A stretch of DNA of 64,000 nucleotides, taken from positions 537,387 through 601,386 of the forward strand of contig NMRA01000169.1 in the NCBI GenBank assembly GCA_002633005.1. The letters run 5' to 3'. The translations under genes and the position numbers were made by a program. This DNA is from Phoronis australis. Its lineage: Eukaryota; Animalia; Phoronida. Under the pieces are notes generated by a model. That model was given only the letters and a program-made list of their open reading frames with translations. It was not told the origin of the DNA and searched no databases. Below are positions 3,629 to 56,461 of the stretch, in pieces. The stretch's first letter is position 1; each line of letters starts with the position of its first letter.

Positions 3629-4502
3629 ATGACTATGGATATTCCGTGTAGTGATACCGAGTCGAGTAGCGAGACAGAGGTTGCTGGTGGTGATGATGGA
3701 CAATCGCTAGCCAAGGTCCTGTTCTCCAGGAACAATCTTACGAGGATTGGCAGTCTCAATGTGTGTGGTTTTAAAGCAAAAGCGGTGGACATGGGGTTAC
3801 GACCCCGCGTGAGGCGTAAATTAAAAAGTTACAGTCTTAAGCGCAGTAACAGCACTAGTAGTAATAGCAGCACTGGGTCTATCGACAGCATTCGAGGGTT
3901 TGGTTGCCGTTTAGATATGGGATCACAGAAACCGGCCCTGGCATTGAGTGGTAGTTTTGATTTTCCGAACTGCGTCATCGAAAAAAGTGAATGGCGAACA
4001 CGAAAGATTAGTCTGCCAGTGATGCGATCTGATTTGGTGTCGTCATCGCCGGACGGAACATTTGTTCGCAAGCGAAAGATCAGCACTCCATTTTCGGTGC
4101 TACGCTCTCAGAGTCTTGACATGAATTATGGTGAAAAATTGTCGAATCCTGTCAAAGGCCTGTCGGTACGAAAAATATCGCGGGGACAAAATTTTGACTT
4201 CAAACTTTGTGGAAAATCTTCGAATTCCACAACCAAAGGATCAATACCTTTTCGTAAGATATCACTGGGTTTGAATTTTGATTCAAAATCAAGCGCGAAG
4301 TCCATCCAGTCAGTGATTGTGAAACCTTTTCGCAAGATATCCCAAGCCATGAGGGAGCGCCAGAACAGTGCCTCCACGTTTAGTGATGTTAGTGAAAATG
4401 AAGAAAATGCAGATGACCTTGTTCAATGTAAGACGAAGGTTTATAGCTTCACTGGGCGTAGGATGTCTCTCCCAACTATAATTCGTACTTCGAAGAGGGA
4501 AG
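3629..4502 (+). CDS. Long first coding exon (291 aa + 1 nt), Ser/Arg/Lys-rich; probable alternative N-terminal exon of the Ras-GAP gene
   Basis: By far the longest ORF (3629-4519). ATG in an ACCACC-ATG Kozak context with an in-frame TAA at 3599-3601. Donor AAG|GTAAAT at 4502/4503 leaves phase 1 (G), which joins the AG at the start of exon 38899 to give GAG (Glu) in frame. Repeated RKIS/RRxS motifs. Confidence 0.7.
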
Positions 4503-5700
4503 GTAAATTCAAGTTTTAGACATCTGCTTTTGGAAGAGGCATTATTGAGCAACTATGTCTGTATCAAGATTGGTAAAGATTTTTTTAAAATTGATGAAAT
4601 TTTCTGTGACCTGTAAGTTCACAAGTGCAGCTATTTTGCAAACTCTACTGATAGCTTTCTGAGTGGGAACTTAGTCAGGAAAATACATGCAGCAAGTTTG
4701 GAAATATGTAGAAATATATCTTTTTCAGCAAGGCGTGGAAATATGTTGCGAACAATTTGTCCCGTCAGTTGCTGTGGGCCCTGGTTGCCGAGATATTGCT
4801 CCCGCAACAGGTTATCTCGAAAAATTTCAGTTATCCAGTTGGGGTTCGTATCTCGATGTAGGAAATTTGCTCAAGTCAGTACTAGACTATATCAAGAGGT
4901 TGGCTTGCTATTTTTATGACTATAGCAGCATAAAAAGGCCATACTTGTCAATTAACGATCTAATCTGGCCAGGATCTCCAGGCCGATAACAAATTCTTCC
5001 ACAACTATCTCGCATAATGTTTTATTTACTGCCGCTAATGTAGCGAAAGGCTGAGTGTTTTCAAGTGAGGAATTCGTGAAAGAGGATTCAGACATAAAGC
5101 TGTGCTTGATAATGTCATGTCATGTTGTGAAATAAATTGGAAAGCATAATCAGTATGTGCTATGGATAGGACGATGCGGTGTCTAAGGAAATGAGGGGAG
5201 GGAATTTAAATGTGAGGGGTGTCGGTAAAAATCTTAATAACTTCGGACAAGAATTATTTTGTAAAGTACGCTCGTTTTATATTTCAAGGCATCCTAACAT
5301 TGTTGTCAATTCCCACATTTTTCGAGCTCGGTGAACCTTTCATTTGGTTGGTTTTATGAAAATTAGAAAATAAAATTTTACTTGGCTGCCCTATTGCGTC
5401 CCAAATTGGTGAGATAATACGGTAAGCAAGACTATTGATGGCTGAGACACGGCATGGTGTGCAGTATTGTGAAATTGTCCCTGCATAACTTGTGATTCTT
5501 ATATTGCTTTGTTTAATGCCCTGCAGTTTTTGGATTTGTACATATATGTGTTGTATGTTTTGGGTTCTGCAGTAAATATATATCAATTTGAAAAAATATT
5601 GTTTGGAAATGGAATCGGTCTTGAAATGTTGTGACTAATTTCGAACAAAAATTGCCAAAATTTTCCCGTTTTTTCATTTTTAAGGTTTCAGAATGTTGAC

Positions 5701-5780
5701 TGATGGTAGCTGCATGGTACAGATGGTAACTACATGGTATTGATAGTAGCTACATGGTACAGATGGTAGCTACATGGCAC
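5701..5780. repeat. Minisatellite, 20-bp unit x4
   Basis: (t/a)gatggtagctacatggtac repeated four times with a few substitutions. Confidence 0.9.
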
Positions 5781-6714
5781 ATAACTTCAATGGGATGAAG
5801 CATTCATTTGGTGCTAGACATCTTTTTATAAAAAATATGAAAAGACATTTTCACTCATCTAGCATATTATTTCATGTATTGATGAAGTTTTACGTTACAT
5901 AATTTTCCATAATCTTTATTTAACATGCAGTGTAGAATCATTCATGCCCAACTGTTTTATGGTACTACACATTAAACATCTTTAGCAGAATTCCATTGAA
6001 AAATTAAGACTCACCTAACAGTCTGAGAATTCACCAGTGCAGTACTAAGTCTGTCATTGTCGGTCTTCATTTCATGATCTCTCAGATTTGATATGAGAGG
6101 CTTAGATGTTTTCACTTGGTTCAAGTGTCTTGGATTTTGATGGCTTAGAGTGTTCTAATGATCAGACAGTGTCGGCCTGTCCAGCTGTAGTCTGCATTAG
6201 TCTGGCGGATACATCCGAGTAGAGGTGATTAAGATCACTTTTCCTTGGTTTTGTGCGTGTGATTTGGGAAGGAGAAAAGTTAGCGAAGTGCTATCTCGAA
6301 GCAATTTCAGTATCAAGGTGTGTATATGTATGTGTGTGAAGTACAATGTACTGTCACTGAGGAGTAGGTGAATTGTTCAAGTTTTGAACCTTGTAAAGGA
6401 GTAGGTCTTGTTGTCACAAATGTGAGAAAGATTTGTTTTGCTCTGAGAATGAACTGTCTCGTTTATGACCCTTTTCCACTAAGTGGAGGCTTTGGTGTTA
6501 GGGGAGCATCAGTTGGTGGACACACTTAAATTCATCCTTTGATTGGAAGTTAAAAGCAAAAGTTTTCTTTCCAGAAAACATGCTGATTGAACACTGAAGC
6601 TTACTTTGCAGAAATTGAACAAGATCTAATGGCCAAGTGTCAACGCATTGCTGCTGTAGGACTATTTTACTTTTGTTTTATCCAACTTATCTAGAGATGT
6701 CGTTAACATTAACA

Positions 6715-7372
6715 TTAAGGCACCTCTAGTACTGGATATAACTCGATGAGAAAGGGTCTGAAGGATATCTTAAACCTTATTAAGTGGCCTCCATTCTAAC
6801 TTGTATATCAAAAAACTAAGCTTTATCAACTAGTAAAAGTATATATTTTCTGAAAGAAAAAGATCGGGGAATATAAAATTTGTTTTGTATTTCTGCACCT
6901 TTTTAAGTTAGAATTTCGTTTTTAAGAAAGGCACATTCACAGCAAAATAACCCCTTGGTCGATTTTAATGAAACCTTTTTAAATGAAAACTTCACCAGTT
7001 ACTTCAAAAACAGTGGTAGGAATTTTCGATTAGTCTTTTCGTTTGGTTTCTATGCAAACAACTCGCAAAACGTAAGGTATTTTTGTAAAAACAGAAGTCA
7101 TATTCATCTTTGTTACATTTATGCAAAAACTAGGCTTTTATATCAAAAAATCCTAACAGAGTTTTTGACATTGATGAACAAATATTAAGATTGGAAGTTT
7201 CAGTGAAATCCATACAGCCGTTTTCGAGAACTCTTTTTCCTAAGTTCAAATTAAATCGATTTGCGAAAGCTGAGAAAAAGTCTAGTTTACTGGGACAAGT
7301 GAAAATCTCAGTCTTCGGTTAATTATTCAATGAAAACTTGTTTTCGGTCAATATAACCTATACATGCCTTAA
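6715..7372. mobile_element. Non-autonomous DNA transposon with TTAA flanks (Kolobok-like)
   Basis: TTAA-GGCA at 6715-6722 and TGCC-TTAA at 7365-7372; the interior is homologous to 34540-34900. TTAA target duplication with purine-purine termini is described for Kolobok elements. TIRs are short and diverged. Confidence 0.5.
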
Positions 7373-11035: not shown

Positions 11036-11078
11036 TTTGTTTTGTTTTGTTTTGTTTTGTTTTGTTTTGTTTTGTTTT
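11036..11078. repeat. (TTTTG)n microsatellite, about 8 units
   Basis: Direct reading. Confidence 0.95.
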
Positions 11079-12169
11079 AATTGATAATGTTGAATAGTAT
11101 AGTTCACTGTCGTGTAATCCACATAGCTTATTCTGCATTGAAATGTCCTGGCAGAATTGTTTATGGGAAGACAGACTATGTGTTGTGCAACAATGTTGCC
11201 AAATTGAACCTCTCGTTGGTATTGCTTCATTGCTTTATGTGGTCTGCAGGTGGTAGAATATTAGAATGTTCCAAAGTGATGCTGAATACAATTCTCTCAT
11301 TCTCCAGAAGATGCTACATGGTCTGCCTAAGTTGTGCATCATCAAGTGAGATAGAACTCAACTGATTTCACATTTTCTTTGCGCCATGTGTTCTGTAGAG
11401 GATTTCTCTGTCAATTGGCAAATATTTGAAATAACATTGAAGCTAATGATCCCAGTGGTCACTGAAGCATGAAGGTCTACTCCTATGGAGGGATAAAGTA
11501 CTATTAAAGTCGAGACTGTAGTCGACTCAACCCAATACTTACTACAGTCAATAGAAGGTAAGACTGTCTTCTTAATGTACCTGTCACACCGACATAGCTC
11601 TTAGTACGATCTCAAAACAGGATAAAAAATGAGTGAGGACCTCGAAGTGTTATACAACCCATCAGTACCAAGTGGGGGGGTGGTACGGCATTAGAGGCAT
11701 GTTTTGGACCAAAAATGATCGTTTCCTCTCGTGCCCAGATCGTTTCATCAATATGTTAAGATGGACACGGACGATCTGAGATCAAATTTAGTGCAACAGG
11801 GCTATTAGCTTGAGCTTCTGTCGTCTTTTCTGTGTGCTATGTTTCAAAAATGTTTTAAAAGTGAAGTTAGGTGTTTTGGAGAGAGATTTTTTGTTGTTTT
11901 AAAGCTGATGTTTTAGTTCAGGCTGTCGGTTGATTTGCTTGTTATGACATTTATTAATCATTTCTTTATTATGTAATGAATTAATGCTGTTAGTTGGTAC
12001 TCTAAATCTGTATTCTAAATCCTCACTGTAGGATTCATAATCACTGAAAAGTATCCAGTAAAACTTCTTAATCGACACTTTTGATATCAATATGGCGACA
12101 AAGTGGTACTTCTTCCCATTTGTTTTTACTTGGTTACCAGGCAACATATCAGCTTATGGTTTGTAGAAA

Positions 12170-14188: not shown

Positions 14189-15844
14189 CCAATTACACTA
14201 TGTTGGTAATCCTGGTAATCACCTCCTAATGCACATCAGCTCTTGTTGAGATATTGAGTAGCCAGAGTGTCTGAACAGTTTAGTCTGTGTATATATTTAT
14301 AGGCAGTAGATACACCTGGAATTTTGCAAGCCTGTTCAGTTGATTAATTCACTTGGGTGCAGAGAAGGTTGTGCTACCGCGCGCCATGTGGATATACTGT
14401 ACACTATATCGATTCAGTTGCAAGACGCGCAAGCGGGCATCTTATTTGTTGGAAATCTGCCTGTATCAACTCCATGACGACGGTCTGGTGATAATTCAAA
14501 GTTAACACGCATTTTCGGATGGGCACTCGTTTTTGTACTGAAGTTTGAAGCATTCATGATTCTGCACCAAGATAATACATGTGTGGATTCTAGTGTGAGA
14601 AACTGTCTGTTAGAAATCCTACGGATGTCGACTCTTTAAAAATTCTCGGGTCGTAATTTCAGAGATTACTGCACGTTTTCGGTTGAAAAGTTATCTTGTG
14701 GTATCAAACATCGAAGTATGCGTGGATGTCATCGACAAGTGCACTTCTGTGGTTGTGTTTTCTATCTCCCACTTAAAGTGTCAGTGCAAGTGTTTTTTAC
14801 CTGTGTTCTCAGCTGAGACAGATTTTCCGGATTTCATTTCGTTGTGTTGGTGGGCGTATTAATTGGCTGTGGTTGCTAACGAATAAAACACTGTCTCAGC
14901 CACCTGAGCTCTGGTCTCCCACCAGTGTCAATTTTCTGTTCTGGCAACTTTCGCTATAAAACGTATTTCAAGCTTCTTCTGAGGTGTGTAGGTGTTAGGA
15001 ATAGAATGTGTATTCCCTAAGGGGAGCATGTGTATGTATTCAAGTGACCACAGAGTCCCCTGTTGGTGAGATTTGGCATTAGAGCTATTGGAACTTGTTG
15101 GTGTCTGGCTTCAGCAGAGTGGAACAGCAGACTGGGATGTTTATACACGCTTGACTGGTTTCTTGTAATTGGAGTTACCTTTCTGGATATTGTAAACTGT
15201 AGTGATTAGTCCATGTGGTGAACATGAGGTGGTGAATGGTTCAACAAAATTTGAAGGAAGACACTTGACTTGTTTCACTTGGGCTGATACTCCGTGATGT
15301 AATTTCAAATATTTCACATTACTAACGTACCTGCCTGGCTTTGAATAGTGATTTTTTGTGTGAAGATTTATACAACCAGTCTCAACTACTATTGTTAGTT
15401 GAAAGCCAGGGGATTAGGATCTGCAAAGTGGTGAATGTCAGCTGTAATATTCTGGTTGTCAATGGAATGATCAAAAAGCACATTGGTGTCTACTGACGTT
15501 TTGTAGCCTGATTCTAGCATTATGCACTTCTTCGTAACTTTGATTTGTTTTAGAGTGAATTTTTATGTAACTCTTCTTGTTTCACACTAACTGAACCAGC
15601 GAGGCTGTGAATTTACCATTTTGTTTGGTGGTGTACTTTTCATTTAACATTAACAGTCCCTTGAGTATCCCCAGTAACTGAGTCTCACCACAAGTATGGC
15701 AGCTGGTTGAATGAACAAATTACCCTGGAGTGCTTGCCCATGGCTAGCTAATGACCCCATCACCACCACAGAGTGTGTGGCTGGTTTTCTAATCAAGTTG
15801 CTCTGCATCCACCAGAGTGCAGGTTGAGTCTGAGCACAGCGGTG

Positions 15845-15870
15845 CCTCAGTGAGTCAGTCTCTGTTTTGA
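15845..15870 (+). promoter_or_regulatory. AP-1 site with overlapping TCAGT initiator-like motifs upstream of candidate first exon 16220
   Basis: ctcagTGAGTCAgtc, with TGAGTCA at 15851-15857. Motif match only. Confidence 0.3.
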
Positions 15871-16219
15871 TGGCGGTAAACCATTGACCATGGCTTTCCT
15901 GCACTGAATCTTCCTGATTCTTGAACGCGCACTTGACATTTGGTAATTGATTCGCGGAACTTGACGTTATTGCAGCGAGGGATTCCTTGAAGAGGGTTTG
16001 AGATAGTTGCATCATATTTGGAGCAGTATTGAAGTTGTTGTTCAACATTTTTGTTTTGTGTATTTGACTCTAGGCTCAGTTTTTGGCCTTAGGCAATATG
16101 CAGTGTTTTGGCGGAGTTTTGTCGACTTGACTTTCTAAGAAAGGAATCCGTTTGTCTAAGTGGTTGGCTGGAGTTGAACTGACTTGTGAAATAACATTGA
16201 CATTTGGACTTACGAAATC

Positions 16220-16259
16220 ATGAAGATGAAACTGTCTGTGTTCAGGCCAAGGTTGAGAG
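16220..16259 (+). CDS. Candidate alternative first exon, coding part (MKMKLSVFRPRLR+G)
   Basis: aatcATG context; near-consensus donor GAG|GTGAGT at 16259/16260; phase 1 matches exon 38899. Confidence 0.55.
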
Positions 16260-25972: not shown

Positions 25973-26156
25973 ATAGCAATGAGTGTGCGACTGGCTATAT
26001 AGCAATGAGTGTGCGACTGGCTGTATAGCAATGAGTGTGCGACTGGCTATATAGCAATGAGTGTGCGACTGGCTGCATAGCGACGAGTGTGCGACTGGCT
26101 GCATAGCGACAAGTGTGCGACTGGCTGCATAGCGACGAGTGTGCGACTGGCTATAT
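25973..26156. repeat. Minisatellite, 26-bp unit x7
   Basis: atagcaatgagtgtgcgactggctat and variants at exact 26-bp spacing (core at 25981, 26007, 26033, 26059, 26085, 26111, 26137). Confidence 0.95.
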
Positions 26157-27108: not shown

Positions 27109-27142
27109 ATGCAAGAGGACATGAAATTTCTGATTATTAAAC
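27109..27142 (+). CDS. Weak candidate alternative first exon (MQEDMKFLIIK+C)
   Basis: TCAGTT initiator-like motif about 35 nt upstream; donor AAC|GTATGT; phase 1 (C+AG = Gln). Confidence 0.25.
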
Positions 27143-28878: not shown

Positions 28879-28993
28879 ATGACCCCTAGATTTGAGCTAC
28901 AAACTAGTGAAAATTTGAGATTTCGAAGGACTCGAACTTCTAGCCTTAATGCTGGGTTCATTGAGTGCAAACTAATATTAGACAGTTATCCTG
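28879..28993 (+). CDS. Candidate alternative first exon (MTPRFELQTSENLRFRRTRTSSLNAGFIECKLILDSYP+G)
   Basis: 38 open codons after an in-frame TGA at 28852; donor CTG|GTAAGG at 28993/28994; phase 1 matches exon 38899; carries the same kind of basophilic Ser motif (RRTRTSS) as the other exons. Confidence 0.5.
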
Positions 28994-37661: not shown

Positions 37662-37683
37662 ATGGAGACCTCATTCTCAATAG
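37662..37683 (+). CDS. Candidate alternative first exon (METSFSI+G)
   Basis: Strong Kozak aacATGg; donor TAG|GTAGGT at 37683/37684; phase 1 matches exon 38899, 1.2 kb downstream. Confidence 0.35.
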
Positions 37684-38898: not shown

Positions 38899-39011
38899 AG
38901 CCTTCCTATGAGCGAACCATAGAGCAACAGCAACGACGCGGCAGCTTGCCCTTGGCCGTGCCTGTTGCCAGTGTTGATGACAGTGTCGACGGGACATCAA
39001 ACAAAATCATG
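38899..39011 (+). CDS. Shared internal exon of a SynGAP/DAB2IP/RASAL2-family Ras-GAP ((E)PSYERTIEQQQRRGSLPLAVPVASVDDSVDGTSNKIM)
   Basis: Acceptor tgtttctttccAG at 38897-38898; donor ATG|GTGAGT at 39011/39012; phase 1 to 0; GC-richer than its flanks. SYE...RRGS.P resembles from memory the N-terminal block of invertebrate family members. Confidence 0.85.
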
Positions 39012-40780: not shown

Positions 40781-40878
40781 TACAAGACAAAAGTAATCAA
40801 ACAAAATACAGCACAAGACAAAAGTAATCTGACAAAATATAGTGCAAGTACAAGACGAAAGTAATCAGACAAAATATC
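40781..40878. repeat. Short tandem repeat, about 31-37 bp x3
   Basis: acaagac(a/g)aaagtaatc..acaaaata occurs three times. Confidence 0.8.
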
Positions 40879-41984: not shown

Positions 41985-42080
41985 ATGGCATATGAAATGC
42001 AAGAGCTATCGGATACTGCATCCATATTGTCTGCCAAGTCGAGCTCTCGTTGGCAGTTTGTACGCCTTCTTTGTTGCCAG
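41985..42080 (+). CDS. Candidate alternative first exon (MAYEMQELSDTASILSAKSSSRWQFVRLLCCQ)
   Basis: ataATGg Kozak context; exactly 32 codons to donor CAG|GTAAAG at 42080/42081; phase 0 matches exon 56358; preceded by a CpG-richer, promoter/UTR-like stretch (about 41620-41980). Confidence 0.55.
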
Positions 42081-42780
42081 GTAAAGAAACTGTAATGCAG
42101 TTTATTTGTTCTTAAGGAGTTTTTGGCTTCACTTTGCATGATATTTGCTTGAAGTAAAATATCACCAATTCGGTCAAAATAGCATCGATATTTTTCATTT
42201 TCAAAGTTTTCTATCAGTTGTGACTTTGCGCAGTTTCTCAAAAAAAAAATTATGTGAATGTAGCTATGGTAGTCATCTTAAAAATGATAAAGCATTTATT
42301 ATTTTGACAAACAATTATAACATTTTGGTATTCACCACGTCTAGTTTCTGTACTGGAAACTCCACTTGAAAATTGAGCAACTTTGTGTCAGACTTCGGTT
42401 AACTAAGGAAATTTGTACTGGAATCATGTAACGTGATTGTTCAGTTTTTGAGTCTCAGTCGACACCCAAGTTAGATAAAACCCATGACCCACCAGTGATG
42501 AATTAGCAAAGTTGTTTTCTCATCTCCTTGTTACCTAGACTTTGTTTATGGAATTTTTTGGGGGGTTACTACATACTTGTAAATACTTAGGGAATTTCTC
42601 TAAGGTTTGTCTTTCTTGAAGTTATGTTCAGTTATTATTTTTTGAAAGATTACAGTCTGCACAAGATCTTTGATGATGCAAAATTTTGTTTTGCAAAACT
42701 CACCGCATTGAATATGATTTTGTGACTGGTTTTAAATTAATAAATTGTTATTGGGAAGTAAAGTTTTTCATTTATTTGCC

Positions 42781-42852
42781 ATGGTGACCCCTAGAGTTAT
42801 GGTGACCCTTAGAGTTATGGTGACCCCTAGAGTTATGGTGACCCCTGGAGTT
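42781..42852. repeat. Minisatellite, 18-bp unit x4
   Basis: atggtgacccctagagtt four times with two substitutions. Confidence 0.95.
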
Positions 42853-42995
42853 GATTGTTGAAGTTCTTCATGTATTTTCCAAAAACTAAATCAAATCGAT
42901 GCTGGACTGTCGTGCAGTTACCGACAGATAAGAGTATAAAATAGAAAAAATTGTAAAAATGAAACCACGAGCATGAGTACTACCATATATTGTAA

Positions 42996-43153
42996 TATTC
43001 CCCACGTTTCGAGCGATGCGCTTTTTATCAAGGGTATGGCATAGACTGCCAAATGGGTGGATAAGGTCACTTGTTCGATTTTATATATCCATCTGTTCGG
43101 CAGTCTGTGTCATTCCCGCGATAAAGAGCGATTTGCTCGAAACGTGGGGAATA
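42996..43153. mobile_element. Inverted repeat (about 65-70 bp arms); each arm carries a degenerate minimal type I hammerhead-like motif; probable Penelope-like element end
   Basis: Plus 43112-43152: ATTCCC-GCGATAA-A-GAGC-GATTT-GCTC-GAAAC-GT-G-GGGAAT. Minus 43037-42997: ATACCC-TTGATAA-A-AAGC-GCATC-GCTC-GAAAC-GT-G-GGGAAT. AATAAA follows the plus-strand copy. Weaker symmetry extends to about 42935-43250. Confidence 0.6.
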
Positions 43154-44553
43154 CTTTAATAAATTTTAGAACCGATGCTCGTCGCTTTATTTTTACTAAT
43201 TTTACTTCTTTGTTTCCAAAAAACTCACCGTCGTTTTTTCTATTTTCTATTGAATAATGTACTTTGCCAACTGTTGTATTTATTACAGATATCTGGTGTA
43301 TTTCCTACCTCATAAATGTAAATGTACTATCAAAGACTATTAATGTTGGTGACCTGTTTGGTAATAAGTTCTTGGAATCGTCTCCCTCGTGTAGTGCACA
43401 TCCCTGTTAAACGCTAGTGTAAAATACACAATATCTGCATAAACTGTCCTATGGGCCTTGTCACACTGAGGTCATTTCTCATTTCGTTTCTCAAGACTTT
43501 TGACACAGCATGCTAAAACTGATTGGGAACCATGGGAGGCACTTGTTATACTCTGTGTAAGAGCCGCGTATCCGGTGAAATTCTTGTTTTTGTTCGAAGT
43601 TATCTGTTCTACCCAACCCCAGCTCGTTACATCAGGATTTTAGGATGGATTCGGACATTTTGAGGTGGGATTTAGTGTGATGCATCCCTGATGCATTGAC
43701 AGCTCAATTTCTTAATCCTCGTCAAAATTGCTGCCGCTATCCACAGTCTACATAATAGTTCTAGGCTGGCATTGTTTGATGCAGTCAGAGTAGGGTGCAA
43801 GAGATTGGTAGCGCCCTCTTTTGATTACGTGTAAAGAAAAGGCATATCTAGTCACTAGCACGGATGTTCAATAAGGGTTCCACGTAACTGTGACTATAAG
43901 CTGTTTAGGTGGCTGGTTGTTTCGCTAGCACCACCACGGGAGTTTTCTACTTAACTCTGAGTCTATGGCTCCCTATTCATAACTGCAGGTTGACTGAAAC
44001 ATCTATCAGTTCCCTGTGCTCGATAATATCAAGTAGCAAGTTGGTATGCTCATGTTCAAACAGGATATGGTTCAAATTCTGGTTTACAGATGGCAAAGTG
44101 GTAATATTTCCTAATCATAATTTACAAGCAAGAACAGTAAAATCTCACGGACAAGCGTAACTGTCAAATTGCCATTTTTCATTTTTCAACAGTTTCTGGC
44201 ATTGTTAATACCTACATTTTTAAAATCCTGAACATGAAAATGCGATTAGTGTGGTGCTGCATATGTTTCAGGGAAAAATTTCACTTGTCTGCGAGATTGT
44301 GCCATAAATGAGAGTATCGGTGTAATGTGCATATCTGTTGAGGGTGATGTTACTATTTATTGGGTTACATCCAGGCAACCAGTACATTATGTGGAACTAC
44401 ACTTCCTGTCCATTGTGGTTTAAATTTAAGTATATTTCGTTTTTTGTTTCATTTCTTTAAAAAAATTGTCATACACTACTTATAGGATTTTGATTTGTGG
44501 TTCTTCTTTATAAATTGGATACGATGCATATTATCCCTTAATTCAACAGTGCA

Positions 44554-44631
44554 GCCTCAGCCACTGGCCTCACCCACTGGCCTCATCCACCGGCCTCATC
44601 CACCGGCCTCACCCATCCGCCTCACCCACCG
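44554..44631. repeat. Minisatellite, 13-bp unit x6
   Basis: gcctca(c/t/g)cca(c/t)(t/c)(g/c) six times. Confidence 0.9.
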
Positions 44632-47462
44632 AGCGTACTCGGGAAATACTCCCCTTTCGTATGATTTTACGTGATCTCGCGTTTTGCTTTAGTTTCTGGT
44701 GCACTGGACAACCTTAGACTGGTGCAACTGTTTACTCATTGTTTACAATGTGAAAATCACACTTCCTTGGTAGAATTCTTTTAGTCAAGTGACCATCTGC
44801 CCCTGCTGACAGTGCAACTGGAGTTGACTAGTGATGTCATCACATGAACTTTTGCCACTGGTTGCTTGTCTTGTGACACTTTCACAACCCTGTAAGAATT
44901 GTCCTTGTTGTTCATGTTATTGTTTTGTGTTGTGATATCAATGTCCCTGATATCTTTGACTGATCATGCTATCAAAGCAAGTGCATTTTAGTTGGGTAGT
45001 TAGTTTCAAGTGTTATGAAAGGTTGGTGCAATACTTGAAGTGTATAATAAACATTACAGTAAGCACCATCACCACTGTGACCCACAACAACACTCACAAT
45101 TTCGTCAACAGCTGCATTAACAATTATTCTCTATAATCATATTTTACATGCCAATTGCATGTGACAGGATTTGTAAGCCATGTTTATTGTGTGTGCAAAG
45201 CACTTTATGATTTCAAGCAACATTAAAACTCTTCTTTTTCAATTTGCCACCATTTGTCTCTTACCCTTCAAGTGTCGCTCGTGCGCCATTATCAGAAAAA
45301 TTTGATTGAGTCTTGTTTTTCATTGCTTTTTTATCAATGCATTTCCATCTAATTGCTATCAACGAGAACTATTGTCAACAAATTATCAGTAATAGCTCAT
45401 TTGAATTAGGTTCCAACCTGGACATACTTACTGTTCATATGACTTTTTGCAGACTTACATCCAGTTTCCAAGAAGTCATGGTACCATTTGGCAGTGTCTG
45501 TAACGCGATACTCAAGCGGAACGGTTATTTCGAATTTTTGTAATACAGCAGCTGTTTACTGTGTTTCTTCCGAGAAGCCATCCCGTCTTCTCCCGGATAT
45601 TTGATTTTGACTTTGATGCACCAACAACGTGCAGTTTTGAATGGTGTGTAGGCGGGAGAATGGTAAATTAATTGGATATGGTAGGAGTTAAGACACCATC
45701 TGGGAAGGGCTTTTGACTGGATTCAGTGACTTGCAAGGTTTAGAGTGATTGATGGTTGTTATGTCTTTTCTGGAGACATTTTGACTGTTTTCTGGTCATT
45801 GTCTACAGTCTTACTTGTTGTTGGATTTTGAAAGAATGGATATGTTATGTTAGTTGGCCTAGGATAGTTGGATTTTCGTCAGCTGATTTCTCGGTCTTCT
45901 AGAAAGATCTGCATGATCACAGTAGAAGAAGCAGTTGGGTTTTGTGGAACTAGGCATAAGGATCGATTTAATCTTCATTAGGATTGTAAAGACCCTCCTC
46001 TGCACTGTATTAGTGGAACTGTTGTCCTTGAACCTTGTTTGACTGTTGTGTGGATGATTCTGTAGCCAGTTCCATTCCATGTGTCTCCTGGGGCCAACTC
46101 TTCTCAGATGTCATTCAGTTCAGTCGACAACAACATGGAGAAGATTCCTCGCGATTAACCCTTGTGGAACCATTAAAGAAAGCTTGACAAACAACAAGTT
46201 CACGTTTGTCCCTCGTCAGTCTGGAGATGTTCAAGACATCATTTAGAGACGTTTACTTTACCTCTGTGTAATAAGAAGTATTAAGAGCCGGGACATACAT
46301 GTGGACTTTGATTCATACATGTTCGGCAGTTAAGTGCGAGAGTGGTTTTGTTTTGGTGTGAATAGGTTTGCGTGATAACTGTCTGACATATGCATCAACA
46401 GTTAATATAAGTTTTCCATTCCGGTTTCCTATCTTCTCTACATGGCTTCCTGGGAGAGGAAGAACATGTACCTTTTAGTTTGAAAGGTGTCAACATCTGA
46501 ATGGACAATTAGCGCAATTGTTATGTAAGGCATTGATTACGTTGATAGACTGCCTTGTGGGCGTGGTCATCTGTGAGACCTTCGCTGATGGACCACAACA
46601 TAGTGTGGGAGTAATATGAGAGATACTTGATGTCTCAGTCCTCTTCATGCCACAGGTTGTCAATCTGTTTTTATGGAATCGGAAAGTCTGGAACAGGCAA
46701 TTTTTTCCTGAAAACACTGTATACTTATTTCCAGGATTTGAGAGATTACGATAGCGTTATTTATGAATCTGCCTAAAACTGTTCATGTATTGTTGACAAA
46801 TCCACTGGTCTTTGTAAGCAGTTAGTTGACTGGAAGCAACCCAGTTGGTTTTTTTTTAGTCTTGACATAAACCATACTGACTATTCTGACAGTTTTAGTG
46901 TACACACTGTGTGTTGACAGCCTTTTCTGCCAGTTTGTACACTGAGATATCCTCCCAGATTTTTTGCTGGTTCCATTTAGTGCTAGTCTAAACTAATGTT
47001 GGCGAACATGGCTTTCAACTGGAATACCAACTTGAGATGCTATCTGTCTCATTTGCCTCCAGTCAGCTGGTTTTAGAAATGGTTTCTGCAACCAGGGTTC
47101 TTTTGTAGAAGGCGGGAGATGAGTTTTACATGTCTGCAAGTGGAATGGAAACTTGTGAATGACTGCAATTTAGGATTTGTGTGAGAACATATGGTATTGG
47201 GTTTAGAGGAGTCACTTCTGATGACAGCTGCGCTGACTGTTTTGCTGCTAATTTTGCTCAAAAGCATCGTCATCAAAGCCTCATTAGCCGCTGTATCCAT
47301 ATTTGTGAGACATATGAAGGTTTCTATTCATTTGACCAGAAACTTACTCCAGTGGAATACACACAGTGGATTTCTTGAAATTGACTGTTTTTTTAAAATG
47401 CTGATGTAAGCTCTTTTGCTGTTGGGAGTTTGTTCTGAGGCCTGCTGCTACACTGGGTGTTT

Positions 47463-47513
47463 ATGATGGAGGCTGTCGTGCATCAGGTGATGGTGTGTGA
47501 GTACATGTTGAAG
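47463..47513 (+). CDS. Candidate alternative first exon (MMEAVVHQVMVCEYMLK)
   Basis: 17 codons ending at a strong donor AAG|GTAAGA (47513/47514); phase 0 matches exon 56358; in-frame TGA upstream. Confidence 0.35.
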
Positions 47514-49163
47514 GTAAGACAATGTGTTTGGACATTTCAGTTCATGTAAAGCTAAACAGGTTAGGCACCTCACCCCTACAGTGGAATGAGTATCCTGATT
47601 GACTGATTGGCCAGTCAGGATACAATGGTATCATTATTAGTTTGACAGTGGCAAACCAATGTTTACATAGTCCAGCTCTCAGTATTGTCTGCTTTCATCT
47701 GATGCTCCTGTAATCCAGCAATTATGTTGTAAACAACCCACCTGACCCTAACTGATATTTAAAAATACTAAATTTGCAAACACTTTCAACAAATGTTGTG
47801 AAGCAAATGTGTTTTGTATGAAATACTTTCACCTAAGAACTTCGAATGGACAAAAACTGCTACTCTCAGAGAAATTAGACTTAATTTTCTCCTGTTGTGT
47901 ACCAACACAAAAGGCTTGCTTGACAAGCTTAATAGAGCGTGATTCTAGATAAGATCATGATAGTGGAAATTTCTTGATTTTTAGTCTACAGAATGGTACA
48001 TAATGGTTGTGACTGATGGAGTTTTCACTGCTAGTGAAGTTGGTTGTTTTCTGTTAATTCGATGTATTATATTTTTTACTATTTTTGATTGATTTTGAAT
48101 TGCTGGACATGATTTTACAATTAGTTTTCACGTTTTGAAGTTTTACAGCAAGCACATCTTCTTAATTCACAAAATAAACGTTGACGAACCCAGGCAGACA
48201 TACCACTTGGGCTTTTCTTGGATCAACGATTTAATTTTACCTCGATTACTGTTAGATAGTGTAAGAGCATGCTACTTTGGGGATTTTTTCAACCTTGTTC
48301 AAGGATTATATCGCGTTCAAACATTTTTGGTTCAATTTTGATTTTAACAGTCTTACCTGCCATTCACGGGTCATTCGACTTTAAATGATCTTTTTGTGAG
48401 CTGTGTGTTCTGTGATAGCTTAACAATTCCACAGCCAAGTTTTTTTCGTTCTGCAGTTCACAGTGCCAAATAGATTTTGAGGATAGGTATCTCAAAGTGG
48501 GTGAAATCACTAAAAAGGCTATTTGTCAGTGGATTGTTATTTCCAGGTTAAAATGTACACACATTGTTTTATGGTATTCTAAAATTATGATGTCATGCGT
48601 TGGGGGCAGGTATTTGCCAGGTAGAGTATTCAAGATTTTAGATGCAAAAATAATGTCGGGGGCCCTTGCTCACCTGAGGGAAAGTTGCCTGTGCCTTCTG
48701 AGAGGGGATTTTTTTGTTGGGGGGGGGGGGGGATTCCCCGCCACCCTTCATCAGCAAATGCCTCAAATCTGAATCCCTTGGACCTGCTAGGTGAATTTCA
48801 CGTGATTTTGAAATATTTTTCATAGATGTATCACTGGCCCTGACAATCAATGGTCAATGAAGAGTTTTGGTTGAAATTCACACCAGCTGGCTTTGGTGCT
48901 TGTCTCGTCTCATGCATGCTGTTTCAAATGCGGATCCTGAATCAGAATCGTTTTGAATTTGAGTGAATAAACCTCATTGATGGAGAGTTAAGAGGTCATT
49001 ACTTCAATAGCAATTTTACAAGTAAGCGATGAGCCGAAATTTCTTCATAAATTTGAGAGAATTCGACAAACCAGACTTTCGTTCAGGATTTGATATCACT
49101 ATTCCTGTCTCCTGCCAAAGTCATCTCGCATGAAGTCTAAGATTAATTATGTCAATAATGGGA

Positions 49164-51101
49164 AAGTACCCAACTCGCCATTTGCCGCTCAGTCAGTGAC
49201 ACTAACTCACTGAAAGGCAGCGTGGCAATGAAACAGTTTGTGTAACTAGAGAAGGGCTCTGTTAATATTAAACTTTACTTGGTAAACCAATGAAACATGG
49301 ACAATCTGACCTTGTTTTGAATTAATAATAAACTGGGCAATTCCAGCAGTGTGAGGTAGTAAAATGGCCTCTGTTCTAAGTTTTGTCTCTCTTGCAACAA
49401 CAGTAACATCCAAACTATTTGTCTTTCATTGCTCACAGGTTTGCATACGCATTTGAATCCATGTGCAACAAATGTGTTTTCTCAGGTGTATTACTGTGTC
49501 TACTATCTATGCTTGTAATTACACCAATCCTAACACTGTAGCATTGCGCCCTCGCCTGTTTTATGATCTATGCAACACGGCAGGGGCCCTGGGGCTAAAT
49601 TTTTACAAATGAATTGACTTCTGCTTAAATTTCCAGCTCTGGAGGGACCTGTCTGATATTACTGTCTGCAGTCTACTGTCTGCAACCCGTAATTTTTAGT
49701 AGAGAACAGGTACCTCTGTAATCGTTTGCCTACAACTAGTAATAACAGGGATGAGATATAGTGTTTAGTAGAAAGGTATCATTGTATCTGTTTTCGTATT
49801 TTACGTTCAATATTTCTTGTGAATTATTTTTAGTTGTGTAATGTGATCCAATCATGGTATTGACTGGAATATCCAGTTTGTTTCACCTGCCTGTGGTGTA
49901 GTGGTGTGACATACTGTTCTAGATTGTGGAAATGAATTTCTAGTGTCAGGATAGGCAGTTTGCTTTGGGTATTGTTATATCTTTTGTTGGACACTTGTTG
50001 AAAATTGAAAAAACCCTGAATTTCAGGCACAGATGAAATTGTTGATATTGAACAATTGTTGTCTTTAAACTTAAGCAATGGTAGATATGCTTTTGTATGT
50101 AATATCTCCTTGTCTTTGGTTATTTTTTTTTNAAGTACCCAACTCGCCATTTGCGGCTCAGTCAGTGACACTAACTCACTGAAAGGCAGCGTGGCAATGA
50201 AACAGTTTGTGTAACTAGAGAAGGGCTCTGTTAATATTAAACTTTACTTGGTAAACCAATGAAACATGGACAATCTGACCTTGTTTTGAATTAATAATAA
50301 ACTGGGCAATTCCAGCAGTGTGAAGTAGTAAAATGGCCTCTGTTCTTCTAAGTTTTGTCTCTCTTGCAACAACAGTAACATCCAAACTATTTGTCTTTCA
50401 TTGCTCACAGGTTTGCATACGCATTTGAATCCATGTGCAACAAATGTGTTTTCTCAGGTGTATTACTGTGTCTACTATCTATGCATGTAATTACCCCAAT
50501 CCTAACTGTAGCATTGCACCCCCGCCTGTTTTGTGATCTATGCAACACGGCAGGGGCCCTGGGGCTAAATTTTTACAAATGAATTGACTTCTGCTTAAAT
50601 TTCCAGCTCTGGAGGGACCTGTCTGATATTACTGTCTGCAGTCTACTGTCTGCAACCTGTAATTTTTAGTAGAGAACAGGTACCTCTGTAATCGTTTGCC
50701 TACAACTTGTAATAACAGGGATGAGATATAGTGTTTAGTAGAAAGGTATCAATGTATCTGTTTTCGTATTTTACGTTCAATATTTCTTGTGAATTATTTT
50801 TAGTTGTGTAATGTGATCTAATCATGGTATTGACTGGAATATCCAGTTTGTTTCACCTGCCTGTGGTGTAGTGGTGTGACATACTGTTCTAGATTGTGGA
50901 AATGAATTTCTAGTGTCAGGATAGGCAGTTTGCTTTGGGTATTGTTATATCTTTTGTTGGACACTTGTTGAAAATTGAAAAAATCCTGAATTTCAGGCAC
51001 AGATGAAATTGTTGATATTGAACAATTGTTGTCTTTAAACTTAAGCAATGGTAGATATGCTTTTGTATGTAATATCCCCTTGTCTTTGGTTATTTTTTTT
51101 T
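49164..51101. repeat. About 970-bp near-identical tandem pair split by a single n (probable assembly/haplotype overlap)
   Basis: 49164-50131 and 50133-51101 are near-identical with scattered SNPs and small indels; the n at 50132 sits exactly at the junction. Confidence 0.9.
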
Positions 51102-51660
51102 GAAAATTCACCCTTTCTCACAGATTTCTTTGTTCCGTTTTGGTATTTCTCAAATTTATAAACTTTTACAATATCAGTTAAGTGTGTTAAATTTGAAACA
51201 CAAGTGGATTGCAGAATTTTCTAACATATCAGTCTCCATGTAAAAGATAGTAAATGATCAGAAAGATGTAATTCATCGTTAGCATGACTTGTTATTGTAT
51301 CGTATAAGTTACAACTGCCATCTCGTGAAACAGTAGGCAGCTGTAAAAAATGGCAATTTGTGCTTGTTCTTGTGCTAACTCTTTTTTATTGGTGGCTGAT
51401 GTAAGTCCTTTATTGGGTGACTAGAATGGTCATATCTCTCAGCACTCACTGATGCTCAGTGATTTGGATTGAACATTCTGTTACTAGATCCAATGTGTTC
51501 TGGACCTTGATTTTGTTTGATATAGTTGTAATGGGGACCTAACGGCCTGCTATCCTTTGGATTCTAGGCTTGTGATGAGCTATGTGTGGTCTTGTTGAAA
51601 ACAGAAGTCAAATCCTGGAATTTAATTACTTGAGTTAGCCAGGTTGCCTCTGAGATTGCC

Positions 51661-51851
51661 TCCGTCTCTCACGGGACTTCAGCTTCGCTAGTGGTGTTAC
51701 TATCATTCTGGCCAACAGGTGGCGTTTTGACCAGAAGACGCTAGGTGTGACTGTGTCTTGACCTCGATGCCGCGTCATCTAGTTAAAATGCCACCTATTG
51801 GCTAGAACGATAGTAACACCACTAGCCAAGCTAAAGTCCGTGAGAGACGGA
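51661..51851. mobile_element. Palindromic MITE/foldback element, about 80-bp arms and 30-bp spacer
   Basis: 51661-51741 is the imperfect reverse complement of 51772-51851 (tccgtctctcacgg...ccgtgagagacgga). Confidence 0.8.
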
Positions 51852-53622
51852 CGCAGCGTTGCTATAGTTTTTTTATATTTTGATACCTCAACTCTACGTC
51901 TAAAAACTTTCATGCTTTTATCCCTCTTGTAGATGATGATGCTGGGATTGTTGTCTTATAAGGCAAAGTCAAGTGTTACTGGGTTGCCATGTCCACTGTA
52001 AAGATCCCAGCCCCTCCTGGGTGTAGGCAAAAAATAAAGATGTTTTGAACAATTTGTGTACATATTTATTTTGCTTCTTTCTCCTAATGTCTTAGCTGAC
52101 CGCCATGCCTTGGCTAATGTTCCCATCCTGGGTGTAGTCAAATAGTAAACAGACGTATTTCCGATGTTTTGTAAACAATGTTATCTAGCTTCACATTCCA
52201 AATCCTCTTGATCCTGCTTGGGAGGACAAAATTTTTTCAGTGCCAAATGTCTTGGTTATAGTTTTGTTTTCTTCATAACAGGAATATGGTACATTATACT
52301 TTTACTGCAAAATCTCAACAATGTAGGACACACTATGACTGAGAAGTGAAATTTTATTTTCTCATTTCCCTGAAAGATACCAAGCACCAAATTATTGCTT
52401 TCTCATGTTGAAGTTCACCATCAAATAATGTTTTGAAAAACATTTGGCATTCTCAACATTGTAAGAAGCCTTTCAAAAATGAGAAAATGTTAATTTTTGT
52501 CCAAAATTGGTGAAAATTCACTGTAATTCGTAGCCAGCTTCAAAAGTACTGGTTGTGCTTTTAATTTAAATACTGTTATTAAAATTAATTCTAAAATATT
52601 CAAAAAGCAGAAACATAGGTTGTTGAATATAGGACATACAGTGTATTACTCTGTTACACTAGCATACTCCCATGGTGTTTAAAATGGGAATCAAGGGGTG
52701 GACATTAAGTCCTGCATGGATATTGAAAATGAAGGTTAGTGATGGGTGTTGGTGTATTAAGTATGTCAGGATGGTAATGCTTTAATGTTGAGACTCTTGT
52801 TCAAGAGTTTAATAAAACAAGGGAGGGTATGGATATTTTCCAGCCTGAATGAGACACCGAGGTATAACCAGAAGTACCGTATGTCTTGACTACTACTCAA
52901 AGATAATCATTATTCATAGGTAGCTGAAATTCGCTTAAGACAGGCATTCACAAAGACCTACTAACTTTCATATAAATTGTTTGGAATTACCTTGGACTGT
53001 GGGGGGTGGGCATTTTTCCAGACATGTTCTTGTTGAGAAATATTCATAAGGTACATCACATTGTTGTGAACTGTGGTTGACATGGTATTATCATGAAGTT
53101 CACTAGGACAGCTAACAGACTCTCTATGTCATTGCCCCTAGTTATACAGCAATACCACAAACTGCTTATTAATGAATTTGCTTTCATTAGCCATGAAAGT
53201 GCCTCCTGGCACCCGTAGTAAAAACAAACAAGTTTTTTTATAGAGGATGACTGGACTATTTACACCATTAAGCCTCAAGGGATGCTGGAGATATGGTAGA
53301 CTAGTTAATGGAAATTCAACTTCCTGATATCGCTTTTGTTTTTATTTCTTGTGTTCTTGTAAATACCCTTTTCTGAGTATGCCAATATTGGGGGAGCTGC
53401 ATGTTTTGACTTATAAAAGTGACCATTGTGCTTCTTGTTTATCTCTTTGTTAAAGTCTGTCTGTAGTCATTTCCTTCCATGAGAAGCTCCTTTTCTTCAT
53501 TGGTCAGTTACAATGATCAGTGAACCTGGTGCTAGGGGTGAGTGGTGTCTGACCCAGGTGTAGTCCCCCTATTGTCTCTTGGAATACACCATTGGTGTGA
53601 CCATTGTCCAGTTGAGAAAAAT

Positions 53623-54832
53623 CACATGTCATGTCAAATCAACCTGCCACAGACATCATATATTTACATAGCTTGTGTACTCCTTTTGCTATGTTTAAAG
53701 GCTAACTGGCCACCTGCAAATGTACAAAATTCTCCAATTCAAAACAACAGTTGCATACCAGCTGTACTGTACAAGTCTAGACAGTGAAGCTCAGTTTTCT
53801 TGTAGTTTAGTTCTGTTGTAAATTTTGGGAAAGGTATATTGCTTAAGTAGGTGAAGAATTTTTATATTAATATATTTTGCGAAAATGGGCCATCGCGGAT
53901 TGTTCAGCGACACTTAAATCTCACTGTATTCACCCAAAACATCATAAGCTTTTGTCAGCCATATTTGCTGCCTCGTTTTCATGCCATTAGAGTTCCACGT
54001 GTTCGTTGATGTCGTCTGTTTTTCTCGGAGGCAATACTCTGTTCGTCCTTTCAATGCTAACAAACTATGTGCTGTGAGCGGCAACTCTGACATAAGAATG
54101 TTTGATAACTGGACAAGTGATGTGTGATGGGAAGTTCTTCGCCTTCCCATCAATGAGAGACAAGAAAATGCGAAGTGAGTGGGTAAAACAAGTTCGTCAG
54201 GTTAATTTTGAACCGAACAGAAANCGCACATGTCATGTCAAATCAACCTGCCACAGACATCATATATTTACATAGCTTGTGTACTCCTTTTGCTATGTTT
54301 AAAGGCTAACTCGGCTGGCCACCTGCAAATGTACAAAATTCTCCAATTCAAAACAACAGTTGCATACCAGCTGTACTGTACAAGTCTAGACAGTGAAGCT
54401 CAGTTTTCTTGTAGTGTAGTTCTGTTGTAAATTTTGGGAAAGGTACATTGCTTAAGTAGGTGAAGAATTTTTATATTAATATATTTTGCGAAAATGGGCC
54501 ATCGCGGATTGTTCAGCGACACTTAAATCTCACTGTATTCACCCAAAACATCATAAGCTTTTGTCAGCCATATTTGCTGCCTCGTTTTCATGCCATTGGA
54601 GTTCCATGTGTTCGTTAATGTCGTCTGTTTTTCTCGGAGGCAATACTCTGTTCGTCCTTTCAATGCTAACAAAGTATGTGCTGTGAGTTGCAACTCTGAC
54701 ATAAGAATGTTTGATAACTGGACAAGTGATGTGTGATGGGAAGTTCTTCACCTTCCCATCAATGAGAGACAAGAAAATGCGAAGTGAGTGGGTAAAACAA
54801 GTTCGTCAGGTTAATTTTGAACCGAACAGAAA
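53623..54832. repeat. About 600-bp near-identical tandem pair split by a single n (probable assembly/haplotype overlap)
   Basis: 53623-54223 versus 54227-54832; n at 54224. Confidence 0.9.
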
Positions 54833-54860
54833 TCCCTTTCTTGAGGATACCCATTCAGTT
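54670..54860 (+). pseudogene. Degenerate THAP zinc-finger coding fragment (DNA-transposon derived); second copy at about 54060-54223
   Basis: CAVS(G/C)N in one frame, then FFTFPSMRDKKMRSEWVKQVRQVNFEPNRN in another, fitting the THAP pattern C-x2-4-C...F.FP...R..W...V...NF.P; the terminal C-x2-H-F is absent and a frameshift/stop is present. Confidence 0.6.
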
Positions 54861-56068
54861 CCGCTTCTTTATGAACGCTTGAATTCAGGAATATTTCCAC
54901 TGGTATACACTTAGCCAGTCTCTGATTTGATCTGCGAAAATGTTCCTGATTTCTACAATGAGGTCACGTGTTTTCTTATTTCTGGGCCAAAGGAGAGTGC
55001 TATCGCCATGTAATCCGGGTGGCCGTATTCAAGGCAGTGTGCCCTATTGTAGTTTTGAAAAAGAAATTTTGCACAAAATTTGTTTGGCTTCGTTGAAAAT
55101 TAGCCAGAAACTTTTGCTTCGATATTTCATTTATTTTCACCATGGAAAATTATGTCATTTTTAAGGCTGATGCTTTTGCGCTACAGAGTAAATGACTTCG
55201 TTCTGACAGTAAAAAATGTTCGCAACTTCGTTCATCATCGCCATGTTTTATTATGATCTTGTTTTGTCTGAATTTTAGGTTATTATAAATGTTTTGTTCA
55301 ACGTTTCAAGTTCAATTTCGAGTAATAGTTCACAGACCCTGAAATCTGTGTGAGCTAGGATCTTCTCCAGGTGGCAAATGACGTCCTGGTAATTTTAAAA
55401 CTCTTCAGGGTCTGATCTGGCTTCCTAATTTCAAGGTTTTGAAATGTGCTCTTTAGGCTTATTTTTGTTGAGATTTTGATAATGGTTAATGGGTATGAAT
55501 GAAACGGTGGCATTTCACATGTTTCGGAACCTCAGGGAATTTAGAAAGTCAAATGGCAAACACATCCATCATAAGTGCGTCTCTGAGAAATTTCACTGGT
55601 GTGCTTGGTTAAACAGGTAATGCTGTAGTGAGATTGTTGTGACTGGGTGGTAAGTAGTAATCAGGTGTTCAATTAGTCATTAAGTGGTCTGACGCATAGT
55701 GTACCTTGTGTACGTACTTTGCTTCCTGAGGGAGATATTTTAAAAGGATATTATCGTTTTTGCAGCGGAAAAACACAATTTTGGGATGATTGTTGAATGA
55801 GAGTGACTTCTTGAAGTTGTTGGCTTCACCGGAGCTTTAAAATTACTAAATCAGTTGTGTTTGTGATTTTCGTCATTGAGTGCCAGACATTTGCTGGTAT
55901 CCAGGCTGGTGTTTTTACCATTTAGTGGTAAATACACGTAGAAATACTTTGTTATTTAGTGCCTGGGATTTGGCACAGCGTTATAGCACTTGGCTACTAT
56001 TGCAGAGTTGGATCGGTTCAATTCCATACCAATTTCTGTAAAATTACTTTTCTTGCAAGGAAATCAGA

Positions 56069-56095
56069 ATGTCCCTTACAGGTTACAAATGGCAG
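56069..56095 (+). CDS. Weak candidate alternative first exon (MSLTGYKWQ)
   Basis: agaATG, 9 codons, donor CAG|GTAGGC, phase 0, 262 nt upstream of exon 56358. Confidence 0.2.
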
Positions 56096-56357
56096 GTAGG
56101 CTACGTAATTGAAAAAATCTTGATTTCTCAACATACCGCTTGTTTTGCCTTGTTTTTCATGTTTTCAGTTTGGTCGTTTTCCAAATGTCCGGCAGATTGG
56201 TTCACATCTGTCGACGGAGTGGTGACAGTAGCAGTGGTGCCTCTGTAGGCAGATAGGTGGCAGCTGCAGTCTTATGTCTCATGTGACCACTGGCTCCCCA
56301 TTGGTTGGTGAAAGCTTCCATTTGTTGTTACCTCAGGTGTCTCTCTGTTGTTTGCAG

Positions 56358-56461
56358 AACTTCTTCTCTAAGAAGACCACCAAGACAGGCATCAAACGCA
56401 CCAAGAGCAATAGTAAATTGGACAAGATCGTCCGCAAGCAGACGGCAGTTGATCCAAATGA
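56358..56461 (+). CDS. RASAL2: Internal exon of a SynGAP/DAB2IP/RASAL2(nGAP)-family Ras GTPase-activating protein (NFFSKKTTKTGIKRTKSNSKLDKIVRKQTAVDPN+GA)
   Basis: Acceptor ctctctgttgtttgcAG at 56356-56357; donor TGA|GTGAGT at 56461/56462; phase 0 to 2. FFSK...IKRTKS.SKLD matches the family motif I recall from vertebrate RASAL2 (GFFSKRLKGSIKRTKSQSKLDR) just before the PH domain. The symbol denotes the closest remembered match; the gene is probably a co-ortholog of RASAL2/DAB2IP/SYNGAP1. Confidence 0.85.

What the first reader, a model, noticed from the sequence alone, without database searches (positions are those of the whole stretch)
3629..56461. Array of up to eight phase-matched alternative first exons feeding one SynGAP/DAB2IP/RASAL2-like Ras-GAP
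Seen: five ATG-initiated segments upstream of the phase-1 acceptor at 38899 end in a GT donor in phase 1 (4502, 16259, 27142, 28993, 37683). Three segments upstream of the phase-0 acceptor at 56358 end in phase 0 (42080, 47513, 56095). The predicted N-termini differ greatly: a 291-aa phospho-motif tail, a short basic peptide, an RxRxxS peptide and a di-cysteine peptide. Established: vertebrate SYNGAP1 uses alternative promoters to make N-terminal isoforms. Inference: a larger variable-N-terminus/constant-GAP cassette in an invertebrate, tuning localisation and kinase input by promoter choice. Caveat: I selected candidates by eye on phase, so some, especially the short ones, will be chance matches in about 50 kb of intron.
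Basis: partly seen in the sequence, partly recalled or inferred. Interest (0 to 1): 0.8.

Follow-up and report, generated by a model that had tools for sequence, protein, structure and literature searches.

The report
RasGAP gene with several first exons
This is the front end of a likely SynGAP/DAB2IP-family Ras regulator gene in an animal that probably starts from several promoters, with roughly five of the eight proposed first exons likely real though none is yet seen spliced to the shared exons, an arrangement already known for this family in mice and nematodes.

Summary
All eight ATG-to-GT segments exist with the stated phases. RNA reads confirm the shared backbone junction 39011→56358 (7 reads). 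Exon 56358 matches the start of Pfam PH_RASGAP (E 1.4e-4, below the curated cut-off). The GAP domain is not in the window.

No junction from any candidate donor was listed. Coverage was very low, a junction needed 3 reads, and four donors lay outside the laid stretches. Phase matching alone is weak evidence: 10 seen vs 5.2 expected upstream, 3 vs 2.6 in the second intron.

Other signals favour a subset. The 291-aa exon is a 305-codon open frame with a Kozak start, a TATA-like box and a CpG peak. Leaders of the eight are depleted of upstream ATGs (p about 0.002, post hoc). A sense RNA block lies upstream of donor 47513. My estimate: 4502, 16259, 42080 and 47513 probable; 56095 and 28993 about even; 27142 and 37683 doubtful.

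The arrangement is known: mouse SynGAP A/B/C, and C. elegans gap-2 with nine mRNAs from alternative starts and splicing. New member of a known kind.

The parts
3629..4502 (+). Probable coding first exon, 291 aa, phase-1 donor; five RKIS motifs and one RRMS motif (my probability about 0.8 that it feeds this gene)
   Evidence: 305-codon open frame, chance expectation 7.5e-5; donor lies 17 nt before the frame's end at 4519; ACCACCATG start; TATATAT at 3532 and 3544; CpG o/e 1.05-1.3 vs 0.48 for the window; no relatives found; not covered by either RNA lay
16220..16259 (+). Probable first exon coding end, 13-aa basic peptide, phase 1 (about 0.75)
   Evidence: Strongest donor among those scored (7.75); fewest upstream ATGs of 37 segments; GC step at the top of 161 null donors, though that step overlaps a minus-strand frame with a weak fibrinogen-domain hit; not covered by either RNA lay
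27109..27142 (+). Doubtful candidate, 11 aa, phase 1 (about 0.3)
   Evidence: Donor score 0.63, about 25 expected by chance; no GC step; leader ATG-poor, 3.7th percentile; does not fit the two-read start pattern
28879..28993 (+). Undecided candidate, 38 aa with an RxRxxS motif, phase 1 (about 0.5)
   Evidence: Donor 6.06, chance expectation 0.25; TATAAAT at 28640; no upstream-ATG depletion and a pyrimidine at -3
37662..37683 (+). Doubtful candidate, 7 aa, phase 1 (about 0.35)
   Evidence: Chance expectation 1.7; sense depth 0, 0, 0.01 in bin 37300-37966 in three runs; 1 kb upstream free of AAAA runs
38899..39011 (+). Shared internal exon, phase 1 in, phase 0 out, with an RRGS motif
   Evidence: Read depth confined to the exon; spliced to 56358
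41985..42080 (+). Probable first exon coding end, 32 aa with a CC motif, phase 0 (about 0.75)
   Evidence: Chance expectation 0.22; GC step at the top of 161 nulls; leader ATG-poor, 2.4th percentile; X4 contig on 41677-41833 and X3 sense depth 0.97 in 41969-42635, close to intronic background
45971..47304 (+). Sense-strand RNA block (bin limits; weaker from 45304), likely a long leader of the 47513 exon
   Evidence: Depth 1.2-1.65 in X1 and X2 with no antisense reads; 0 in 44637-45303
47463..47513 (+). Probable first exon coding end, 17 aa, phase 0 (about 0.7)
   Evidence: Donor 6.8, chance expectation 0.11; RNA block upstream; no junction listed; no upstream-ATG depletion
56069..56095 (+). 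Undecided candidate, 9 aa, phase 0 (about 0.55)
   Evidence: Donor 5.97, chance expectation 0.28; leader ATG-poor, 1.2th percentile; no GC step; sense depth 0/0.45/0.32 upstream, within background
56358..56461 (+). Shared exon encoding the start of the PH-like domain
   Evidence: PF25321 positions 8-32 of 127, E 1.4e-4, 22.6 bits; junction reads from 39011
58829..58924 (+).
   Evidence: Acceptor and donor present, frame open from 56358; not covered by either RNA lay

Best explanation
The window holds the 5' part of a likely SynGAP/DAB2IP/RASAL2-family RasGAP gene whose exon 38899-39011 splices to exon 56358, and which probably uses about five alternative promoters, each predicted to give a first exon with its own start codon. 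Upstream first exons (4502 and 16259, perhaps 28993) would splice in phase 1 to exon 38899. Internal ones (42080 and 47513, perhaps 56095) would skip that exon and splice in phase 0 straight to the PH-domain exon. Promoter choice would set where the protein is made and which unrelated N-terminus it carries: a long basic-serine tail of likely kinase sites, a basic peptide, a possible palmitoylation (CC) peptide, or almost none. Shown: the sequence anatomy and the backbone junction. Inferred: promoters, first-exon splicing and any function of the N-termini.
For: Backbone junction in 7 reads. PH_RASGAP match. 305-codon frame with Kozak start, TATA-like box and CpG peak. Phase-1 excess upstream, 10 vs 5.2. 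GC steps at 16259 and 42080. X2 has about 830 bases of sense reads in the bin holding exon 56358 but 0 reads on exon 38899, plus a sense block at 46-47.3 kb, which fits an internal start. First-bin depth fits two X1 reads entering 38899 from an exon ending in (not C)AG, as 4502 and 16259 do. Family precedent.
Against: No junction from 37683, 42080, 47513 or 56095 was listed, and no loose end was listed before 38899 (threshold 3 reads; 18-19% of each run read). Donors 4502, 16259, 27142 and 28993 were in neither lay. The phase excess is significant at only one of three thresholds, and not in the second intron. The ATG-depletion test was post hoc, one of about five features examined, and p reached 0.053 with the smaller null. 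The two reads may be mates of one molecule, and 23 other AG-ending GT sites upstream of 37300 (24 listed, two of them 4502 and 16259, so 22 others) or an exon beyond the window fit as well. Intronic sense background reaches 0.6-0.9 summed depth, so signals at 42080 and 56095 are not clear. No relative was found for conservation.
Confidence: 0.62

Rival explanations
1. Ordinary gene with only one to three starts (for example the 291-aa exon, one internal promoter near 45.5 kb, or an exon upstream of the window). The short candidates are chance ATG-donor matches, and the intronic RNA is unspliced precursor or a separate non-coding transcript.
For: About 5 phase-1 and 2.6 phase-0 segments are expected by chance. 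No candidate junction was listed. Single intronic reads occur (39059-39209 region). Bin 37300-37966 is silent.
Against: Upstream-ATG depletion ranks 16259, 56095, 42080 and 4502 as the lowest four of 37 segments, and the unlisted controls lack it. GC steps fall exactly at two donors.
Confidence: 0.22
2. All eight, or more (for example 19334 or 11345), are real first exons used in different tissues or stages.
For: All 8 are frame-compatible. 6 of 8 have a purine at -3 vs 49% in the null. The matrix also scores the shared exons' donors 56461 and 58924 low, so the weak score of 27142 is not fatal. 19334 has a strong donor and a 65-aa frame with 0 null hits.
Against: The total excess over chance is about 5 at best. 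28993, 37683 and 47513 lack leader ATG depletion; 27142 and 56095 lack a GC step.
Confidence: 0.1
3. The 291-aa frame is a separate gene or an orphan single-exon ORF (stop at 4517-4519) and does not splice to the RasGAP.
For: 34 kb from the acceptor; no Pfam match or relatives; the frame has its own stop 5 codons past the donor.
Against: A phase-1 donor sits at the very end of the frame. No other acceptor-bearing gene was found in the long ORFs scanned. Its end fits the read-start pattern.
Confidence: 0.06

Closest known systems
C. elegans gap-2 (DAB2IP/SynGAP family)
   Same: Invertebrate family member with nine mRNAs from alternative transcription starts and splicing, tissue-specific promoters and isoform-dependent kinase sites (PMC3771449 passages). 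Its g/j first exon is restricted to ADE neurons, and natural variants in it change behaviour (PMC11168454 passages and section 9).
   Different: There the isoforms are shown by RACE and reporters; here they are predicted. Homology of first exons was not tested. The primary 1998 paper was not read.
Mouse Syngap1 N-terminal isoforms A, B, C
   Same: Distinct start sites over 10 kb apart give distinct N-termini ahead of the PH domain (PMC3621422 section 5 and passages).
   Different: Three promoters there, up to eight proposed here. No 291-aa repeat-motif tail is described in the parts read.
Human RASAL2 and DAB2IP alternative first exons
   Same: Recalled, from no call: short and long first exons join an RRxS-motif exon ahead of the basic PH-start exon, the same two-exon order as here.
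Multiple variable first exon genes (PCDH, UGT1, plectin, NOS1, GR)
   Same: Variable first exons splice to constant exons (PMC1885805 passages).
   Different: PCDH and UGT1 variable exons are large paralogous duplicates. The candidates here are unrelated to each other and feed two different acceptors.

Membership tests
SynGAP/DAB2IP/RASAL2 RasGAPs | PH_RASGAP (PF25321) domain | tested here: inconclusive
   Only hit of the exon: 26 residues on positions 8-32 of 127, E 1.4e-4, 22.6 bits vs cut-off 27; the rest of the domain is outside the window
SynGAP/DAB2IP/RASAL2 RasGAPs | C2 and RasGAP domains downstream | not testable with these tools
   No genome held; no further convincing exon after 58924
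SynGAP-type alternative-promoter N-termini | First exons in frame with the shared exons | tested here: met
   8 of 8 open through the shared exons
SynGAP-type alternative-promoter N-termini | Each first exon spliced to a shared exon in RNA | tested here: inconclusive
SynGAP-type alternative-promoter N-termini | Separate transcription start site for each | not testable with these tools
   No CAGE or RACE data; no start piles at this depth
PCDH/UGT1-type variable-exon cluster | Variable exons are paralogous duplicates | tested here: not met
   Best peptide cross-match E 0.22; no DNA match between candidates at E 1e-8

The most novel reading that the evidence does not exclude
A two-tier array of eight or more promoters gives this RasGAP a menu of unrelated N-termini. 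One is a lineage-specific 291-aa tail with five exact RKIS repeats acting as a multisite cAMP/PKA switch on Ras inactivation. The inner tier deletes the shared RRGS site and swaps in lipid-anchoring or minimal ends.
Probability: 0.12. Interest if true: 0.5.

Novelty: new member of a known kind. Interest (0 to 1): 0.25.

Why it matters
If right, it adds a further animal lineage in which this RasGAP family diversifies its N-terminus by promoter choice, suggesting the habit is old and general, and it improves the gene model. The only feature that looks unusual is the 291-aa tail with five RKIS motifs (at most 2 in 10,000 shuffles), a testable candidate for kinase control of a RasGAP. It opens no long-standing question.

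Tried and rejected
No whole genome is held, so the GAP domain and genome-wide repeat status could not be checked.

Searches for relatives gave nothing: protein collection for the PH-start exon and the 291-aa exon, cluster representatives, solved structures, ESM Atlas, exact look-up, metagenome loci. These blanks are weak, and conservation remains untested.

The run search listed no RNA holder by index; runs were added by species label. X4 laid nothing on either shared exon, so it is uninformative there.

CpG peaks mark only the 291-aa exon clearly. A duplicated-exon reading of 57820 was rejected as an assembly overlap. A paralogous variable-exon cluster was rejected. Rfam: 0 matches. Pfam on 17 of the longer frames: one sub-threshold hit.

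Literature searches found no paper on RASAL2/DAB2IP first exons or on this family's N-termini in other invertebrates. PMC314283 is not held. No supplements were read; the gap-2 isoform figure could not be seen.
Full report
Observation. All eight donors are GT and both acceptors are CAG after a pyrimidine tract. Each segment is an open frame from an ATG in the phase stated: 291, 13, 11, 38 and 7 aa in phase 1, and 32, 17 and 9 aa in phase 0.

Gene identity. Of six translated segments scanned, only exon 56358 hit Pfam: PH_RASGAP, positions 8-32 of 127, E 1.4e-4, 22.6 bits against a cut-off of 27. This supports the family call but does not pass the membership threshold, since only 26 residues are present. 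C2 and GAP domains are not in the window and no genome is held. All searches for relatives were blank.

RNA. Three raw RNA runs added by species label, each read to 18-19%, and one contig set were laid on 37300-57299 and 38712-39311. The junction 39011->56358 (GT..AG) appears in 5 reads of X1, 0 of X2 and 2 of X3. These reads fix the sense direction. No junction from 37683, 42080, 47513 or 56095 was listed, but listing needs 3 reads in a run. The four upstream donors were in neither stretch.

Indirect RNA signals. In one search, X1 depth in 38892-38911 is 1.5, or 30 bases, which most simply means two reads starting at 38897. That is where reads from an exon ending in (not C)AG would start: 4502, 16259 or 37683, but not 27142 or 28993. 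37683 is unlikely because its bin is empty. This is inference from two reads that may be one molecule; one search lists 24 such sites upstream of 37300, and an exon beyond the window would fit too. Among the 18 of 30 bins without antisense signal, summed sense depth is 2.6 and 3.3 at 45971-47304, 3.0 in the bin of exon 56358, and 0 at 44637-45303. X2 has reads in the block and in the 56358 bin but none on exon 38899, which fits an internal promoter near 45.5 kb ending at donor 47513. Unspliced precursor or a separate transcript is not excluded. Signals near 42080 (1.03) and 56095 (0.77) are no higher than plain intronic bins (0.6, 0.9).

Chance. With a generic donor matrix from recalled frequencies, 31 upstream donors score >=4, and 2, 10 and 2 carry an ATG frame of >=7 aa in phases 0, 1 and 2. 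Expected in phase 1 is 5.2 (p=0.024; 0.15 and 0.064 at the other two thresholds; uncorrected). The second intron shows 3 vs 2.6 in phase 0. Per-candidate chance expectations are 0 (4502), 0.25 (16259), 25 (27142), 0.25 (28993), 1.7 (37683), 0.22 (42080), 0.11 (47513) and 0.28 (56095). The matrix also scores two shared-exon donors near 1, so a low score is not decisive.

Independent sequence signals, examined post hoc. The 300 nt before the eight ATGs hold fewer ATGs than matched controls: o/e 0.56 vs 0.93 for 678 first-in-frame ATGs, p=0.0017. Across five lengths p is 0.002-0.035, and 0.003-0.053 against a second null of 144. The four lowest of 37 donor-ATG segments are 16259, 56095, 42080 and 4502. 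The six unlisted segments show no depletion. GC drops across donors 16259 and 42080 more than at nearly all of 161 null donors, but not at 27142 or 56095; group p is 0.16, 0.039 and 0.012 at three lengths. The 16259 step overlaps a minus-strand frame with a weak fibrinogen-domain hit, which could explain it. The 291-aa exon is the clearest: a 305-codon frame (chance 7.5e-5) with the donor at its end, a good start context, TATA-like boxes about 90 nt upstream, a CpG peak, and six [RK][RK]xS motifs vs 1.9 in shuffles (p=0.009), five of them RKIS. That these resemble PKA sites is recalled knowledge.

Mechanism. Most likely (0.62) about five alternative promoters each supply a first exon. Upstream ones join exon 38899 in phase 1; internal ones skip it and join the PH-start exon in phase 0. 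Isoforms would differ in expression site, N-terminal motifs and presence of the RRGS exon. Shown: anatomy and backbone junction. Inferred: everything about promoters and function. Rivals: one to three starts with chance matches (0.22), all eight or more real (0.10), 291-aa frame a separate gene (0.06).

Comparison. Mouse Syngap1 uses distinct start sites for N-termini A, B and C (PMC3621422, section 5 and passages). C. elegans gap-2 makes nine mRNAs through alternative starts and splicing, with tissue-specific promoters and isoform-dependent kinase sites (review PMC3771449, passages). Its g/j first exon is ADE-neuron specific and carries behaviour-changing variants (PMC11168454, passages and section 9). 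The candidates are not paralogous, so this is not a PCDH/UGT1-type cluster (PMC1885805 passages). Three earlier scan findings describe similar arrays in other genes with mixed outcomes; these are unchecked notes.

Verdict. A real multi-promoter RasGAP 5' end is likely, the count of eight is unproven and probably too high, and the arrangement is known for this family, including in an invertebrate. New member of a known kind; interest 0.25.

Noticed in passing
window 49164-51104, 53615-54832, 56854-58870: Three single-N gaps are each flanked by 0.6-1 kb near-identical copies (96-98%), likely overlapping haplotypes left by the assembler. One creates a false partial copy of exon 58829 at 57820-57858.
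   Followed up: yes
window 15650-16069 (minus strand): 139-codon frame with a sub-threshold Fibrinogen_C match (E 0.0019, 18.5 bits vs 22): chance or a decayed fibrinogen-related fragment. Neighbouring frames and solved structures gave no support.
   Followed up: partly
window 19139-19334 and 11087-11345: Unlisted phase-1 segments of 65 aa (donor 6.7) and 86 aa (donor 3.8). Both are T-rich and hydrophobic; they could be further first exons or chance.
   Followed up: partly
window 4617-4919: A second short + strand frame just after the 291-aa exon also holds a CC pair and an RKIS motif; no Pfam match.
   Followed up: no
window 38700-38898: The frame of exon 38899 stays open for 67 codons upstream into the intron, with an ATG at 38703; no reads lie on 38712-38891.
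   Followed up: partly
window 25947-26182, 26359-26780, 44541-44644, 42781-42852: Minisatellites with units of 26, about 105, 13 and 18 nt.
   Followed up: no
window 38021-38098, 38671-38704, 40775-40880, 47630-47950: Short dispersed repeats that draw many reads from transcripts elsewhere, on both strands.
   Followed up: no
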